Assembly: GCA_964016885.1 (NCBI GenBank)
Contig: OZ024741.1
Span: 371,318,001-371,382,000, forward strand
DNA: 64,000 nt
Source of the DNA: Eledone cirrhosa
Lineage: Eukaryota
Direction of reading: 5' to 3'
Made by a program: the position numbers and the translations under genes
Notes under the pieces: generated by a model
Database searches by the model: none
The model's input: the letters and a program-made list of their open reading frames with translations, nothing else
Told to the model about the DNA's origin: nothing
In this document: piece after piece, positions 690 through 26,074 of the stretch
How the letters are laid out: each line of letters begins with the position of its first letter
How positions within the stretch are numbered: the first letter of the stretch is position 1

Positions 690-2620
690 ATATTTATTCT
701 ATTATATATATTTCAAGGGTACCAAAACTTTGGTACGCACTCATCAGATAAAATACAAAGTTTGTTCAAGTTTCACCTGGATAGTGAAAGGAAAGATAGA
801 AAAAGGGATAAAGAGGAAGAGAGGAAAAAACAAATATTTCAAATTATTTTGATGAATATGCAAATGAGTTTGAGGCGTAGGGTGAAAAAATCGTTATTTT
901 TAGATGCTAGGTAGATTAAAATAATTATTAGGATATATATATGTATATATAGGAAGAAGAAAGAAAGAAAAGCTTGTAATTATATTACTAGTGTACGTGA
1001 ATTTAAAAAAATTGAAACGTTAAAAATTAAATGTTTGTTGAAGTGGTGGAATATCAATCCAGAATTAAAAAAATATTTAGCTAAATCATGACTTATAATA
1101 TTATATATATAATCATTACAATTAGATTATATGAAGAATTATGGTTGTAAGTACATTTTATCTTATTATATTACAACAGGTTGTAAGTATATAAATATCT
1201 ATATAGATTAATAAGTGTATAAATATAACTATTATTGGTGATTATATAGATATAAAACACACGTATTAATTTGTTTACATTTCTAATATGAGTTACGAAG
1301 GATGTTGATTTTACATTTTAAATATATACTTAAGAAAAAGACATAGTTCAAATTGTAAGAGAAGAACAATTTGTAGATTCAAATAGTTTCATAAAAAATT
1401 GAAAATATTTACAGAACATTATTAAGTTAGAGAAATTACATAGAATTTAACATACAAGTTATTATGTCTACGTCTGCTCAATTGTAAAGGAAAAGATAAC
1501 TCCAAAATTATTTGTTAAACTATTAATATTAGATTTGATGAATAATTTTCTTAGAAAATGCGGAAAGTATGTAGAGAAAATTATATATTATTTTGTGTGA
1601 GATTATAAGGTATTTTATATTACATGTTTTCAAGGATGAGAATTTCAATTATATATGTATTTGGATATTATCTATATCGAAAGATGTGTGAAAAGTTTGA
1701 AAATTAAAGAGAGGAAAAATATATTATTAGATAACTCAAGAGTGCATTTAGAAAAACTATCGTAAAGAGGATATCTTTCACAATATCAATTAAAAAGTAT
1801 CAATCTAAAAAAATATCAATCTAAAAAAAAATAGATTAAGAAGAGTATCATTAGGAAAAGAATATCATTGGTAAAAATATCAAATTTAAGAAGAAAAAAA
1901 TCATAAAAAAAAAACAAAAAAAACCTCATTAGACAACAGAAGCATTTTAAAGACGTATATGTAGTCAAGTGTAATGAATATTATAGATTAAAAATACTTC
2001 GGAAAGTGGTTCTTTGGCGATGTCTGCAAGAACTGAATAATTCGCTTTTTAAATTAATAGAATTTTGACAGTTAAGTATATAAAAAATACCTCGATACAC
2101 AAATGACAGATTCTTGAGAAAGCCATATTTCGGTATGCAGGTGCTATCGAAACCGTTCCCTAAGATATTGAATAGACTATATTATTGTCCTTTAAATGCC
2201 AAATTAAATGTGAAAGTGAAGTGGAAGATTTTTTATCAGACCTATTAAATGTATGTTTGCGATTATACCAGCGTTCTTTGAATTTTGTAGAAGTGTCACC
2301 TATATAGTTAAATATTTTGTCTCTAGTTTTTACTGTGCATTTATATATTAAGTTTTTATCTAAGCAATTGTTTTGTAAAGGACAGTTTGATTCAATTCTA
2401 CAGTTACATTTTCGGAAGTTGTTGTTACTAGAAACGGTACTATTAGTATGAATATTGTTATTTGAAATATTATTATTGTTATCTTGGTTTGTTTGGTTAG
2501 GGTTTAAATTTAAGTTTCTATTATTAATTCTATTTATATTTTGTGCGATGTTCATAGTAGTAGAGTAAGATAGTTTTATAGTGCGTCTGTTAAAAATAGA
2601 GTGTATATACATATATAATA
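690..2620 (-). mobile_element. Penelope-like element 3' fragment: decayed GIY-YIG endonuclease plus AT-rich pLTR with HHR
   Basis: ORF 2160-2612: CNCRIESNCPLQNNC..NLIYKCTV..YIGDT..KFKERW..TSLSHLIWHLK. The C-terminus continues frameshifted to ~1975. HHR at 695-755. Confidence 0.85.
695..755 (-). ncRNA. Type I hammerhead ribozyme in Penelope pLTR (family C)
   Basis: Minus strand: TATTTTAT-CTGATGA-GTGC GTACCAAA gt TTTGGTAC CCTT-GAA-ATATATAT-A^ATAGAATA. It lies downstream of the co-oriented GIY-YIG remnant. Confidence 0.75.
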
Positions 2621-2939
2621 AATGGGAACAAAGAATCAGTATTGCATCATATACATATTTAATTACATATTACATATCGGTTTCACTACCGATCAGCTCA
2701 AAGAACGATCGAATAATGTTCGATCCTGTCTCTGGAATCGGGAGCCCCTCAGATATATGTTCTCACATGTAGACGCATTTCCAAATGTTGAAATGTTAAA
2801 CACCCGATTCGTTATTTTAGGCTGCCACAAACTTTGCTAGAAGAATTGTGTGATACACTGACAGTAGATGGTTATACAATAGATATATTCAATACAGTTA
2901 ACTAATTGCAAACTCAAGGTTCTAAAAATCTTCGCTAAG

Positions 2940-4769: not shown

Positions 4770-7550
4770 TACTACTTTGACGCTAAACTCCGCCAGTTGC
4801 AGACTGCGCATCAATATGAGATATTTTTCTCCACAAAGTTCGATCACCAGCAGCAGAGTTTAATGAGCAAAGATCAAGTCCAGTCCATAAGTTGACATTA
4901 TCAAGCCATCGTTTTGGCTGCCAGCCTCTGCTTCTCTTACCAGCCAACCTTCCTTCCAGATATAACCTACTCACACCACGAGTTGATCTTTTTATATGAC
5001 CGTATAGTTTGAGTATTCTTGACTTGACAATTGATGTAATTGGTCTACGTTTGGTAATGTTGAGCAGCTCACTGATACAGATACGGTCACTGAGCTGTTA
5101 GTCAGTCATAAGTCTCATGATGTGGTTCTGGAATGTAGAGAGCTTCTGAAGTGACCTTGTCGTCGAATTAACACAGTCAAGACCATATAACACAGCTGGT
5201 AGGATGTAAGTATCGAAGATCTTAGCTTTTAAATGATAGGAAACTCGTTTTAGATTGTGAGTTGGAGATTGATATTGTTTTTATCAGTTGTCATACATTT
5301 TGTTTTGGAGATGTTGATGCGTAAGCCAGCCTCCAGCGAATGTTTGGCCAGTACATTCAGAAAGTTTTGCAGATCAGTTCTAGAGTAACTCATGATGGCC
5401 AGATCGTCTGCATAGCTAAGATTTGATAGGATTTTACCTACTATTTGATAGCCTGAGGAGCTTTCTTCTTCAGTTTGGTAGATTAGTGCAGCTATAACTA
5501 TACAGAAAAGAAGTGCTGATAGTACATCCCCCTGCTTAACTTCCTTCAAGATATCTAAACACCGTGTAGTTCCCAAATCTGTTTTGATATATTCTGTTGA
5601 GTTGGTGTAAGTTTCTTTAAGTAGGTTGATGTATTTTTTGTTAATTGAGGTCTTGTTTAAGAGTTGACACAAGCTGGGTAGTTTCACGCTATCAAAAGCT
5701 TTTGTGAAGTCAATGAAGGTGATGTGACAACAGGGTTGTTGAATTCTATTGATTTCTCAATGATTTGTTCAATATCTAGGATCTGCTCAATGGTGTCTCT
5801 TCCAGGTTGATACGCTGTTTGTGTTTCAGGAAATGAGGCGTAAAGGTCTGACTTTACTCGTGCTGCAATGATACTCATGAAACTTGTAAACGTGGCTCAA
5901 TAGGCTGACAGGACAATAGTTCCCACAGTGAAGTCTGCTATCTTTTTTGTAGAGTATAATTATTAATGCTTTCTTGCAGTTAAAAAGATGTTGAAGTGCT
6001 TTGATAATTGGTTCACCTCCAGCTGTGATGAATTCTGAGTATAGGTTGTCCAGTCCAGGGCTTTTTTCTCGCTTCAAATTTTTGATGGCATGAGATATCT
6101 CGCTAGCTAAGATAGATGGAATGGCATCTGATGTCGAATCATGAATTGTTGTTGGTTCTGATTTGCTGAAGTACAGTTCTTCATAGAATTTAGCCCAGCG
6201 TTCAAGAATATCGTCTTTGGAAGTAAAGATAGTATCGTTTGAATCTTTAATGCCCCAGCTAAGATTTCTTGGTTTAGTGTCTAGTTTCTTCAGAACAGTA
6301 TGATATAACCTGTTGGGTGGTAGGTTATTCAGCTCCTCAATGTTATTGTACACTTGCTTAAGTTTGTCTGAATTAACGAGTTTTTTGGGATTCAGCCTTT
6401 GCTATTCTGTGGCCACATTCTCTTCTGATTCTATGTTTTTCAGATATTGCGTTTTTTTTTTTGTTTGTTGTGACATCCATTATGGGATGGAAAAGCTATC
6501 CTTAGGTAAAATCTCTTCAGATACCTCTTTTATGTCTCTGCAGATACTATCATAAATCTTGTCGGAGTTTTCATCAGATTGCAAAGCTGAAAAGCTGTTT
6601 TGCAATTCGAGTTTGAATCGGCTTGCTATTTCGTTACATGAGAGTTTGTCTAAGATAACTTTCGATCGTATTTTATTTTTTTGTGGCCAAATAAAGTTGA
6701 TGCGAAATCTTGTGCGTATGGTGCGCACAAGATTTCGCATCAGATATATCAGGAATGTTAAGAGCAGTGCTGTCTAATATTCTTAGTCTTTCTGAAGAGT
6801 TTCTTGCTATTGTAAAGTCTATTTGATTCTTAGTTATGCTGTGAGCAGTATATCCAAGTGAACAGATTTTTCTTTTGAAATATTGTGTTTGTGGTATATT
6901 TCCCAATACTTGATGGGAATGATTCGTTCAGGCGCCCAATTTTACAGTTAACGTCATCCATCAGAAAGAGGTGATCTCTCTTTGGTGTCTTATCTATAAT
7001 GGCTTGTATGTTGTCATATAACTCATTGATTTCTTCAGCTGAATGTGTAGATGTGGGAAAGTAGCACAGGATAAGTGCGAGCTTACAAAACTTACTTCTC
7101 AAGCTCAGAACAGCGAGTCTGTCTGAAATAGGTCGATAGTTGTGTAATAATGATGCGCACTTTTTGTTCACCAAGAAACCCACTCCATTCATGCGACGAG
7201 TCACATTGCTTGACAGATAAATATAGTGTCCGGTATTTTGGTGTATCTTTATTTTGTTTTCGTTTGATTTAGTCTCTGATAGTTCGATAATATCCCAGTT
7301 TACTTTCTTCATTTCATACATCATTGTCTCAAGAGAGTTGGTATCACGGTCATTGATGGTATGTGTGTTGTATGTGCAGTTCTATTTGTATAAATCAAAC
7401 CAGTCCGATGTTGCTGTGCGATTCCCTAGTCATAGCTGTCACATCAGTCTGGGACTGCTGGTGTTCACATCAGTCTGGGACTGCTGTTCACTCTTCGAGG
7501 GTCCGGAGGGGGCCTCCTCTGTACAACGAATCTTTGAGGCGATTTTTTCA
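4770..7550 (-). mobile_element. Near full-length decayed RTE-type LINE (APE endonuclease + reverse transcriptase)
   Basis: Frameshifted pieces: WDIIELSETK..GVGFLV..YFPT (APE); KSPGLD..NYCPVSLLSHVYK; VKQGDVLSALLF; YADDL; GKRSRG..RWLD..DRTLWR. Confidence 0.88.
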
Positions 7551-8000: not shown

Positions 8001-8030
<30 letters not shown>

Positions 8031-8297
8031 ATGATTTTGGTATGTTTATGTACACTTTTTCTTCTAACTTTGATTTTGTACCTAATTATGTATGATTAAC
8101 TGTATGTCTAGTCAATTTCTACAGGCTATCAGAAATACTAGGTAAATTTTCTGTGGCTGTGAATCGCGGATAAAAAGCTATCATTTATTTATCTATTGTT
8201 AGCCTCGTTTAAATGATTTTTTGTATGGTTGATTATGCTGATTGGGGGAAGAAATACTGTATATATTTTATCTAATGATTCTATGGACTTACTTTCT

Positions 8298-8384
<87 letters not shown>

Positions 8385-8387
<3 letters not shown>

Positions 8388-9197
8388 TGTATATATAATG
8401 TATTTTGCAATACACTTTATGCTTAATTAAAAGCATTTTGAAGACCGTATGCTATTGTTTTAGAGTAGTGACAAACTCACTTACTTTAATCTCAGCAAAT
8501 AAGGGGAGATAAGCCGACAAGGCCTTGTTTCGCATTTATTGATGCTTATCAAGGCTAACTACTCCCTCCTGTTTACTGAGATCACTGATGTTATTATACA
8601 TTCATATATATATATTGCTATTTCAGAGCTCCAATTCTAATTTTTTATTTCTGCCTGACCGGCAACCGCTCTGTATAATCAGTTCCTGGTTATTTACTAG
8701 AATTCTATAAGAATATAACATCAGTGATCTCAGTAGACAGGAGGGAGTAGTTAGCCTTGATAAGCATCAATAAATGCGAAACAAGGCCTTGTCGGCTTAT
8801 CTCCCCTTGTTTGCTGAGATTAAAGTAAGTGAGTTTGTCACTACTCTAAAACAATAGCATACGGTCTTCAAAATGCTTTTAATTAAGCATAAAGTGTATT
8901 GCAAAATACATTATATATACATTCATATATATATTGCTATTCAGAGCTCCAATTCTAATTTTTTATTTCTGCCTGACCGGCAACCGCTCTGTATAATCAG
9001 TTCCTGATTATTTACTAGAATTCTATAAGAATATAACATCAGTGATCTCAGTAGACAGGAGGGAGTAGTTAGCCTTGATAAGCATCAATAAATGCGAAAC
9101 AAGGCCTTGTCGGCTTATCTCCCCTTGTTTGCTGAGATTAAAGTAAGTGAGTGTGTCACTACTCTAAAACAATAGCATACGGTCTTCAAAATGCTTT
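8385..9197 (+). repeat. 318-bp tandem repeat (family B) preceded by an inverted partial copy; one HHR per unit
   Basis: GTAGACAGGAGGGAG occurs at 8733 and 9051 (period 318). ~8385-8595 is the reverse complement of ~8715-8925. Confidence 0.9.
8743..8805 (+). ncRNA. Type I hammerhead ribozyme with U3-A8 core (family B); copies at 9061-9123 (+) and 8504-8566 (-)
   Basis: GGGAGTAGTTAGCC-TTGATAA-GCAT caataa ATGC-GAA-ACAAGGCCTTGT-C^GGCTTATCTCCC. Confidence 0.82.
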
Positions 9198-9871
9198 AAA
9201 AATCATATACCTCAGGTTGGTGCGAGCAATAACTAAAAAAAGCTATTGGGACAAGTAAATCGCGTAAAGCGAGTGAGACAAGTAAACAACATAGAAGGAT
9301 AAAAGCAAACCGAAGATAGGAAAATAAACAAGCAACATGGTTATCCGGTCAGCATAAGCTGGGTGCATTTCATGAGCGATCAAGATACAGACCGTCCGAC
9401 GTGAGTGAGATGTGAGCAAGAAGAGACCCCACTACTAGCCAAACGGGAAAAACTGAGAAGGGGAGAAACAGAGAGTGAGTGAGTGGAAGTGCGAGGAAGA
9501 GGTCAGTCGAGAGAAAGTGTAACTGACAGAAGGGGCGAAAGAAGGTGAGAGCATCAGAGAGAACGGGTAGCAGTAAGAGAGAAACAGACAAACGCAGCCG
9601 AGGTAAATATGTATAAAAAAACATGAGAAGAAAGAAGAATACTGCGTGGTTGCACATGGGTTACATATGATAAAATTAGTCCCTCGTCAGTGATTTGCCA
9701 ACCATCATTGATATTTCATCGCATTAAAAATCATATACCGCGAGCAATAACTAAAAAAAGCTATTGGGACAAGTAAATCGCGTAAAGCGAGTGAGACAAG
9801 TAAACAACATAGAAGGCAAACCGAAGATAGGAAAATAAACAAGCAACATGGTTATCCGGTCAGCATAAGCT

Positions 9872-9873
<2 letters not shown>
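9198..9873. repeat. Direct repeat pair (~150-165 bp; 9198-9363 and 9727-9873) flanking a purine-rich spacer
   Basis: AAAATCATATACC..GCGAGCAATAACTAAAAAAAGCTATTGGGACAAG..CAGCATAAGCTGG is present twice, with small deletions in the second copy. Confidence 0.8.
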
Positions 9874-9923
<50 letters not shown>

Positions 9924-10374
9924 CATAGGGATATATGTATATATTTAGACATATATTTAGACATAGTCACAGATACATATATGAGTGTGGCTACCTTTCA
10001 CGGTGTGGCTCAATGAAAAATTTAATTAAGCAAATAATTATTAATCAGAACTATATATAAAATTATTAGATAAAATATACACACTCTTTCCTCACCCTAG
10101 TCCATAGAAATCAACCAGATAAATAATCATTTAAACGAGGCTATAAGTTTAAAATGTAACTATGAAGAAATAATAAACAAATGATACAGACTATTTTCCG
10201 CGAGGAACAGTCAAAATTTATCTAGTCATTCCTTTTAGGCCGTATAAATTAACTAAACAAATAATCAATTAAACGGAGCTAGGTCATTGGTTGATTTCTA
10301 CAGACTAAAGTGAGGAAAGACTGTGTATATTTTATCTAATAATTCTTCAAACTTGCAACTTTATATATATATAT

Positions 10375-25462: not shown

Positions 25463-26074
25463 TATATATAATAGGTCCCCCTATTAAATCCTATATCATC
25501 AACAAAAAATGACCTAGAGAACATCAAAATTGCTCCTGTAGAATCAAAAGTGAATGCCCATTACAAGGTAAATGCAACACCAAAGCCATTGTATATGCGG
25601 CTAAAGTGACAACCACCAGCAACAACCAACCAGCCACCAGTGAACGATATGTGGGTATGACGCAAGACAAATTCAAAACGCGTTATTACTCACATGTCGC
25701 ATCCTTTCGACATCCAGAAAAAAGATTTACAACATCTCTGGCTAGCAGAATATGGGATTTGAAAGACCAAGGTATCCAATATAAATTGGATTGGTCAATT
25801 TTGAACCAATCTAAAGAATATGCAACTGGAACAAGAAAATGCACGCTCTGTATAAATGAAAAATATTGGATTCTGCAAAACCTTAAATCACCAAAGACCT
25901 GCCTAAACACAAAGACAGAAATTTTCACCAGTTGCCCACACATGAAATCACACCTGCTTTCCAGCTCATATAAACTTAACACACTTTCAGATACTTATCC
26001 TCCATAAGCTCTTATTATTCTCTTTAAGACTACATTTTCTGATTTACTTTCATTTTTAACCTTATTATTAATTT

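What the first reader, a model, noticed from the sequence alone, without database searches (positions are those of the whole stretch)
8385..9197. Second retrozyme-like repeat (318 bp) whose ribozyme has the compensatory U3-A8 core
Seen: three copies read TTGATAA instead of CTGATGA, with perfect stem II (GCAT/ATGC), GAAAC, a 12-nt palindromic stem III, GUC and a bulged stem I. Known: C3-G8 is a tertiary Watson-Crick pair and the U3-A8 double change retains activity; such variants are missed by CUGANGA searches. Inference: a functional natural variant in a second, unrelated retrozyme/pLTR family. The layout (inverted partial copy, then tandem copies) is the Penelope-type insertion signature.
Basis: partly seen in the sequence, partly recalled or inferred. 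Interest (0 to 1): 0.75.

Follow-up and report, generated by a model that had tools for sequence, protein, structure and literature searches.

The report
Retrozyme repeat with U3-A8 hammerhead
This is a short, non-coding jumping repeat in an animal-type genome that carries a self-cutting RNA motif with a swapped but still matching base pair in its core; both the kind of element and the swap are already described, so it is a new example, whose one notable trait is that it looks built to cut only when two copies lie in one RNA.

Summary
Confirmed. Three near-identical copies of a type I hammerhead (HHR) with U3-A8 lie at +8757, +9075 and -8552 in a 318-bp non-coding unit: 1.9 tandem units plus an inverted 220-bp copy that runs into a (TA)n tract. 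Reads from other copies show a dispersed, often tandem family; all 9 shown substitutions in the ribozyme region fit the predicted fold (3 of the 9 only if in phase, which is not shown), and none falls on a core position. The native two-unit transcript folds in silico as a double hammerhead; a single copy or the circle folds into an inactive decoy helix that uses U3. Best reading: a non-LTR retrozyme moved by Penelope-like (PLE) machinery. The U3-A8 pair is in print (natural examples, Perreault 2011; about 1,300 in Schistosoma PLEs, Cervera 2014), as are the inverted/tandem layout and (TA)n targeting (Craig 2021); this scan noted a U-A core in another genome. Cleavage and expression are untested, and 3/8 covariation inside the family was not seen. 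New member of a known kind; low to moderate interest.

The parts
8301..8384 (.). (TA)n tract into which the inverted copy runs; likely target site
   Evidence: 620 reads of run X14 leave the unit at the same place into an AT run (table 7)
8385..8594 (-). Copy C: inverted partial unit with one hammerhead
   Evidence: 99.1% over 220 nt to 8715-8934
8504..8566 (-). Hammerhead of copy C; U3 8552, A8 8547, C17 8516
8594..8595 (.). Inversion junction, blunt, no shared letters; the + side starts just before the unit's internal AT run
8595..8915 (+). Copy A: full unit (321 bp; 3 extra letters near its start)
8743..8805 (+). Hammerhead of copy A: U3 8757, A8 8762, helix II 8764-8767/8774-8777, palindromic helix III 8781-8792, cleavage predicted after C8793
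8794..9111 (+). Predicted 318-nt monomer released by two cleavages; GC 34%; circular fold -85.5 kcal/mol, z -6.3, 0 of 100 shuffles as stable
   Evidence: prediction
8916..9200 (+). Copy B: 285 bp, cut short at its 3' end; internal AT run 8925-8934
9061..9123 (+). Hammerhead of copy B: U3 9075, A8 9080, C17 9111; helix I extends to 9043/9140
9197..9873 (.). 1.3 units of a different ~520-bp repeat family fused to copy B over 2-4 shared letters and ending in (TA)n 9874-9918; possibly part of the same insertion
   Evidence: loose ends before 9193 in 509 X14 reads show this family's own continuation

Best explanation
A non-autonomous non-LTR retrozyme. Steps: (1, inferred) tandem genomic units are transcribed as multimers; (2, predicted) two neighbouring ribozymes pair their 12-nt palindromic helix III and swap helix I strands to form a double hammerhead that cuts after C17, with U3-A8 standing in for C3-G8; (3, inferred from known retrozymes) the 318-nt monomer is ligated to a circle, in which (predicted) the core strand GCCUUG pairs with the helix III strand CAAGGC, so the lone ribozyme is mostly shut; (4, inferred) a PLE reverse transcriptase/GIY-YIG protein supplied in trans copies a multimer or circle into a (TA)n tract, both DNA ends priming, one of them on the unit's own AU run, which leaves an inverted copy head-to-head with a tandem array. 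Shown: anatomy, family-wide tandem arrangement, structure-compatible variation, recurrent end at the AT run and recurrent inversions. Not shown: RNA, cleavage, circle, helper.
For: All core positions other than 3/8 match the consensus, 3/8 can pair, G10.1-C11.1 present. Aligns end to end with Rfam HH9 incl. 6-bp helix I, 4-bp helix II and a CAANAA loop 2 (E 0.034-0.06). Other copies (4 runs laid on 8883-9330): helix II pair A-U to U-A (X14 278/738 and 279/694), helix I pair C-G to U-A (221/616 and 292/717), A-U to G.U at 9071 (241/602), G.U at 9044/9139 seen as A-U (184/466) or G-C (43/486), G.U to G-C at 9125 (88/490), loop change 9089; 9 of 9 compatible against 3.8 expected, P about 9e-5. 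A loose-end consensus of 6 contigs keeps U3 and A8 with a changed helix II. Head-to-tail joint 9197 to 8883 in X1 (6 contigs), X14 (36 reads) and X5 (1 contig). Native 8595-9200 transcript: minimum-energy fold is the double hammerhead, cross-copy helices I and III at 0.81-0.96, helix II 0.76-0.86; whole active form 0.27 at 37 C, 0.45 at 25 C. No ORF (longest stop-free frame 49 codons). U3-A8 active in vitro per Perreault 2011. A PLE-like 3' end with GIY-YIG-like ORF sits head-to-head between (TA)n tracts in the same window.
Against: No cleavage or RNA data. Phase of the paired variants is not shown: 3 of the 9 (9084, 9093, 9112) need their partner, and 9044A with 9139C on one molecule would mismatch. 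153 of 193 variant rows were hidden, so low-frequency core changes cannot be excluded; some indels look harmful (+A after 9095 in 43/732 reads, +T after 9114 in 34/734). X14 is reduced-representation, so its shares are not genome-wide copy shares. Rfam score is far below the curated cut-off. The folding model ignores loop-loop contacts, and it also gives a very low open-core value for the circle of the window's ordinary C3-G8 462-bp family (2.5e-5), so low monomer values are weak evidence. No target-site duplication could be read. In an Anolis PLE the HHR was not needed for insertion in vitro.
Confidence: 0.7

Rival explanations
1. The unit is the pLTR of an autonomous PLE, and this locus is a 5'-truncated insertion that copied only terminal repeats; the HHR processes the full-length PLE RNA rather than a free small circle.
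For: Inverted plus partial-tandem layout and (TA)n bias are PLE hallmarks (Craig 2021); the published U3-A8 set is from PLE-related motifs; retrozymes are proposed to derive from pLTRs (bioRxiv 2026); a truncated PLE end with the same layout lies at 37680-39340.
Against: No ORF in or beside the unit; exact head-to-tail 318-bp joints recur in 3 of 4 runs; helix sizes are canonical-like, without the extra nucleotide after A9 and long helix II described for minimal PLE HHRs; none of the 24 loose ends shown was tested for, or recognisable as, a PLE ORF, but 355 were hidden.
Confidence: 0.17
2. The ribozyme is a fossil: the family descends from a retrozyme or pLTR but now spreads as satellite or passenger DNA, with conserved pairing serving the RNA's rod-like shape or PLE protein binding and not cleavage.
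For: The lone ribozyme is predicted inactive (0.0002-0.0003); many PLE HHRs cleave poorly in vitro and one is dispensable for insertion in vitro; read depth is lower over the ribozyme than over its flanks.
Against: No shown variant hits any of 12 core positions; helix II and helix I change in compensating pairs, which a simple rod does not need; the two-unit transcript folds straight into the double hammerhead.
Confidence: 0.11
3. Chance resemblance or assembly artefact.
For: Microsatellite-rich, AT-rich region; the three copies are not independent; no listed read piece spans the whole laid stretch.
Against: 0.005 hits per shuffled window; family, tandem joints, AT-run ends and opposite-strand joints (4 and 3 reads at other places) are seen in independent reads.
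Confidence: 0.02

Closest known systems
Metazoan non-LTR retrozymes (Cervera and de la Pena 2020, PMC7229834; coral 220-245 bp, mussel 350-390 bp, axolotl 330/350 bp)
   Same: Tandem non-coding unit of a few hundred bp, one type I HHR per unit, GC below 50%, highly self-paired predicted circle, dimer-favoured cleavage as in axolotl, co-occurrence with PLEs.
   Different: U3-A8 core (not mentioned in the parts I read; supplement unreadable); helix III is a 12-nt palindrome, longer than the 1-2 bp plus small loop described as usual; the predicted circle blocks the core by self-pairing, which that paper says is the exception among metazoan retrozymes (some mussel circles); circRNA not shown here.
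U3-A8 minimal HHRs of Schistosoma mansoni Cercyon PLEs (Cervera and de la Pena 2014, PMC4209133)
   Same: Same 3/8 swap in a type I HHR of an animal genome, about 1,300 motifs; palindromic helix III; dimer model.
   Different: Those are minimal motifs (long helix II, short helix I, extra base after A9), mostly single; this one has canonical helix sizes and sits in tandem 318-bp units.
Natural U3-A8 hammerheads of Perreault et al. 2011 (PMC3088659)
   Same: First report of the natural covariation; states the double change was already shown active in vitro.
   Different: Their sequences did not contain this core string in 11 supplementary files searched for 4 spellings; context there not examined.
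PLE insertion architecture (Craig et al. 2021, PMC8557442; Frangieh et al. 2024, PMC11167929)
   Same: Inverted 5'-truncated copy next to a partial tandem; (TA)n preference; both target strands cleaved and extended; internal start of reverse transcription.
   Different: No coding part here; the left end coincides with an AU run of the RNA that matches the target, whereas the Anolis enzyme starts at a site not homologous to the target.
Rfam Hammerhead_HH9 (RF02275)
   Same: End-to-end alignment, same helix I/II sizes and loop 2 type.
   Different: 19.5-20.3 bits against a cut-off of 52; HH9 has C3-G8 and is a single intronic motif of amniotes.

Membership tests
Type I hammerhead ribozyme | Core N3-UGA-N-N8-A, GAA, A15.1-U16.1, H17 with a Watson-Crick 3-8 pair | tested here: met
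   U3 UGA U A8 A; GAA; A-U; C17; U3-A8 is a published natural form
Type I hammerhead ribozyme | Helices I, II, III around the core, open at helix I | tested here: met
   formed in the two-unit transcript, not in the lowest-energy fold of one copy
Type I hammerhead ribozyme | Structure kept across diverged copies | tested here: met
   9 of 9 shown substitutions compatible, phase not shown, 153 of 193 rows hidden
Type I hammerhead ribozyme | Rfam family score at or above gathering cut-off | tested here: not met
   0 hits in the window; HH9 19.5-20.3 bits against 52. The other HHR families of the window are missed too, so this reflects the models' reach
Type I hammerhead ribozyme | Self-cleavage after H17 | not testable with these tools
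   No assay
Non-LTR retrozyme | Tandem units of about 150-450 bp, each with a type I HHR | tested here: met
   318-bp period, two consecutive complete HHRs; tandem joint in 3 of 4 runs
Non-LTR retrozyme | Non-coding, GC below 50%, highly self-paired monomer | tested here: met
   Longest stop-free frame 49 codons; GC 34%, z -6.3
Non-LTR retrozyme | Expressed as linear and circular monomer RNA | not testable with these tools
   No RNA run could be laid
Non-LTR retrozyme | Target-site duplication when present; no LTR, PBS or PPT | tested here: inconclusive
   Ends lie in (TA)n and in another repeat, so no duplication can be read; PBS/PPT not searched
PLE pLTR | Joined to an RT plus GIY-YIG ORF | tested here: not met
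   None at this locus; other copies not visible beyond short loose ends
PLE pLTR | Minimal HHR (extra base after A9, long helix II, short helix I) | tested here: not met
   No extra base, 4-bp helix II, 6-bp helix I with distal extension (description)
PLE-mediated insertion | Inverted 5'-truncated copy adjacent to a partial tandem; microsatellite target | tested here: met
   against Craig 2021

The most novel reading that the evidence does not exclude
The C3-G8 to U3-A8 swap was kept because U3 does a second job: it completes a 6-bp decoy helix (GCCUUG with CAAGGC) with the long palindromic helix III, shutting the ribozyme in the monomer and the circle while leaving the double hammerhead of the multimer untouched. 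That would be an encoded off-switch in a catalytic-core nucleotide, and an answer, for this family, to the open question of how animal retrozyme circles avoid cutting themselves. The locus would also record twin priming on a multimeric, chimeric RNA (320-bp family fused to a second family) inserted into one (TA)n tract.
Probability: 0.15. Interest if true: 0.6.

Novelty: new member of a known kind. Interest (0 to 1): 0.3.

Why it matters
As it stands it adds one retrozyme family and shows that the U3-A8 core also occurs in a canonical-size ribozyme of a tandem retrozyme, where descriptor and Rfam searches miss it, so retrozyme counts may be low. It offers a small, clean construct for two testable questions: whether U3-A8 locks the circle while the multimer cleaves, and whether PLE proteins mobilise retrozymes into (TA)n tracts by priming from both DNA ends. 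Neither would change the accepted picture of hammerhead chemistry.

Tried and rejected
No RNA holder listed; this says nothing about expression. Pattern scans of viral contigs and metagenome contigs gave 1 hit each; both lie in unrelated, apparently coding DNA without a paired core and were rejected as chance. Rfam miRNA hits at 8536-8772 come from the inverted repeat itself. Rfam found no ribozyme in the right-hand repeat 9190-9880. Pfam gave no family for 4 GIY-YIG-like ORF relics and 3 other relics; only 1 of 8 (5250-5756, RVT_1) matched; the GIY-YIG label rests on one Atlas search of 38422-38880 (clusters with GIY-YIG on 18-31% of members). No tRNA and no bacterial-type promoter (the latter scan is not suited to this genome). 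My first constrained fold had the distal helix out of register and was redone. The idea that U3 is required for the lock was weakened by controls: with C3-G8 in silico the circle's open core is still only 0.02, and the ordinary 462-bp family scores 2.5e-5. Lunse et al. 2017 on dimeric PLE hammerheads is not held and may bear on novelty. Look-ups of earlier notes by sequence and by place were empty.

Full report
Observation. The window is AT-rich, full of microsatellites and retroelement relics, as in an animal genome; no whole genome is held. A descriptor scan finds a type I hammerhead with core U3-U-G-A-U-A8-A at +8757, +9075 and -8552. Helix II is GCAT/ATGC around CAATAA, helix III is the palindrome ACAAGGCCTTGT, and the cleavage triplet is GUC (C8793, C9111, C8516). 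The + array spans 8595-9200 with a 318-bp period (98.9% over 261 nt); an inverted copy covers 8594 down to 8385 (99.1% over 220 nt) and runs into (TA)n 8301-8384. A strict descriptor gives 3 hits in the window and 0.005 per shuffle in 200 shuffles. The unit shows no blastn similarity to the 462-bp family or to 8 other repeat stretches tested, apart from two short hits at E 0.42.

Type of ribozyme. Rfam gives 0 hits at gathering score in the whole window. At a loose threshold all three copies align end to end with Hammerhead_HH9 (19.5-20.3 bits, cut-off 52, E 0.034-0.06): 6-bp helix I with one U.U mismatch, internal loop, 4-bp helix II, 6-nt loop 2. This is the canonical metazoan layout and not the minimal PLE layout, which has an extra base after A9, a long helix II and a short helix I (PMC4209133, parts 1-2 of 4 read). 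Helix I continues for about 20 more pairs (9043-9065 with 9119-9140).

The family. Sixteen runs were listed, 13 holding part of the stretch, none on record as RNA. I laid 4 of them on 8883-9330 at 80% likeness: X1 (contigs, organism A, 3,083 laid), X14 (RAD-seq reads, organism A, 7,567), X4 (organism B, 77) and X5 (organism C, 6). X1 may be the source of the window. The head-to-tail joint 9197 to 8883 is in X1 (6 contigs), X14 (36 reads) and X5 (1 contig); X4 lists no joint, but its loose end at 9197 continues into the next unit. 620 X14 reads leave the unit at its internal AT run (8934) into an AT run, the same place where copy C meets (TA)n; an expanded internal microsatellite could give the same signal. 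Opposite-strand joints at two other places (4 and 3 reads) show that inversions recur. Of 193 substitution rows 40 were shown; 9 lie in 9043-9140. In X14: 9084 A>T 278/738 with 9093 T>A 279/694 (one helix II pair); 9074 C>T 221/616 with 9112 G>A 292/717 (the pair next to the cleavage site); 9071 A>G 241/602 (to G.U); 9044 G>A 184/466 and 9139 T>C 43/486 (two different repairs of one G.U); 9125 T>C 88/490 (G.U to G-C); 9089 T>C 399/727 (loop 2). All 9 are compatible with the structure drawn from the window copy alone; the same substitution types placed at random give 3.8 on average and all 9 with P about 9e-5. Limits: 6 are compatible whatever the phase, 3 need their partner and phase is not shown; 153 rows are hidden; RAD-seq samples few loci; two small insertions look harmful (43/732 and 34/734 reads). 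No shown row falls on a core position, including 9075 (U3) and 9080 (A8), and a loose-end consensus of 6 X1 contigs keeps both with a changed helix II. So U3-A8 looks like the family state; a C3-G8 subfamily, which would show covariation directly, was not seen.

How it likely works. A single ribozyme does not fold into the active form in the nearest-neighbour model: the strand GCCUUG, which includes U3-U4-G5, pairs with CAAGGC of helix III (active helices 0.0002). The same decoy dominates the predicted 318-nt circle (0.80-0.98), which is highly self-paired (-85.5 kcal/mol, z -6.3, 0 of 100 shuffles). The native two-unit transcript 8595-9200 has the double hammerhead as its lowest-energy fold, with cross-copy helix I and the 12-bp helix III duplex at 0.81-0.96 and the decoy at 0.03-0.04; the complete active form has 0.27 at 37 C and 0.45 at 25 C. 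This fits the published idea that dimers cleave in multimers and circles are spared. Replacing U3-A8 by C3-G8 in silico raises the circle's open-core value from 0.0003 to 0.02 and leaves the dimer about the same (0.21). Against reading much into this: 0.02 is still mostly shut, the model omits loop-loop contacts, and the circle of the window's ordinary C3-G8 462-bp family scores 2.5e-5. PMC7229834 (parts 2-4 of 6 read; supplement unreadable) says most metazoan retrozyme circles are predicted to leave the ribozyme free and that the block in vivo is unexplained; this is why the decoy is worth a test.

Insertion. The inversion junction is blunt. The direct part starts at 8595, a few letters before the unit's AT run, and the inverted copy ends at that same AT run where it meets genomic (TA)n. 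That is what priming of the second DNA end on the RNA's AU run would leave (twin priming, a mechanism I recall from L1; a search for it with Penelope listed 3 papers, none on PLEs by title). On the right, copy B is fused over 2-4 shared letters to 1.3 units of another ~520-bp family that ends in (TA)n at 9874, so the whole block 8385-9873 may be one chimeric insertion; its orientation is unresolved. Inverted plus partial-tandem layouts and (TA)n bias are described for PLEs (PMC8557442, passages); an Anolis PLE protein cleaves and extends both target strands, prefers AT-rich DNA, and did not need its HHR for insertion in vitro (PMC11167929, parts 1-2 of 4). The window holds a candidate helper class: two head-to-head 3' ends (37680-38581 and 38380-39340) with a GIY-YIG-like ORF relic and an HHR, both ending in (TA)n. 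It shares no sequence with the 318-bp unit, so the link is inferred.

What is known. Natural U3-A8 cores were reported by Perreault et al. 2011, who state that the double change was already shown active in vitro (PMC3088659, one section and a supplement search). Cervera and de la Pena 2014 found U3-A8 in S. mansoni Cercyon PLEs and about 1,300 motifs with a dedicated descriptor. Tandem type I HHR repeats of 150-450 bp are non-LTR retrozymes, proposed to derive from PLE pLTRs (bioRxiv 10.64898/2026.07.22.740005, part 1 of 5 and passages). PMC6155905, PMC6765202 and PMC7151607 were seen as passages only. I found no report of U3-A8 in a canonical-size, tandem retrozyme in searches, but the library lacks most subscription papers, Lunse et al. 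2017 was not held, and supplements of the 2014 and 2020 papers were not seen.

Verdict. The core variant and the layout are both known. New member of a known kind; interest 0.3. The boldest reading left open, U3 as a built-in lock of the circle, I put at 0.15.

Noticed in passing
   Followed up: partly
window 37122(-)/37233(+), 41807(+)/46623(-), 42787(+), 56059(+), 27739(-): At least five further, mutually different C3-G8 type I hammerhead motifs in short elements next to (TA)n tracts, two of them as inverted pairs; none reaches an Rfam cut-off. At least 8 hammerhead families in 64 kb counting the 318-bp, 462-bp and PLE-end ones.
   Followed up: partly
window 37680-39340: Two head-to-head PLE-like 3' ends (96% alike over 911 nt) with a GIY-YIG-like ORF relic and HHR (37875-, 39084+); both end in (TA)n, the right one with about 60 extra letters, like a PLE tail.
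   Followed up: partly
window 8653, 8971; 34962, 35424, 35886, 34127(-); 9863(-), 9352(-): The 9-mer GCCTGACCG lies 104 nt (318-bp family) and 113 nt (462-bp family) upstream of the ribozyme core in otherwise unrelated units; a near match is in the right-hand repeat. In reads, the segment 8965-9006 around it is shared with yet another family in organisms A, B and C. Possible promoter or protein-binding module; not tested against chance.
   Followed up: partly
window 9197-9873: A ~520-bp repeat family, 1.3 units; its minus strand has a half core CTGACGA near 9698 with no matching GAAA, perhaps a decayed ribozyme.
   Followed up: partly
loose end before 9108 in run X1 (1 contig) and +C after 9104 (95/696 X14 reads): Helix III variants that stay palindromic with a one-base centre; the first would lose the decoy helix unless the core flank also differs.
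   Followed up: no
window 2160-2669(-), 25513-26007(+): Two more ORF relics that look by eye like PLE GIY-YIG ends; no Pfam hit.
   Followed up: no
window 4783-7381(-): Decayed non-LTR retrotransposon; one piece matches Pfam RVT_1 at 1e-20.
   Followed up: no
window 8030-8300 and 10057-10346: Another repeat family flanks the whole block on both sides, partly inverted; it may mark the pre-insertion site.
   Followed up: no
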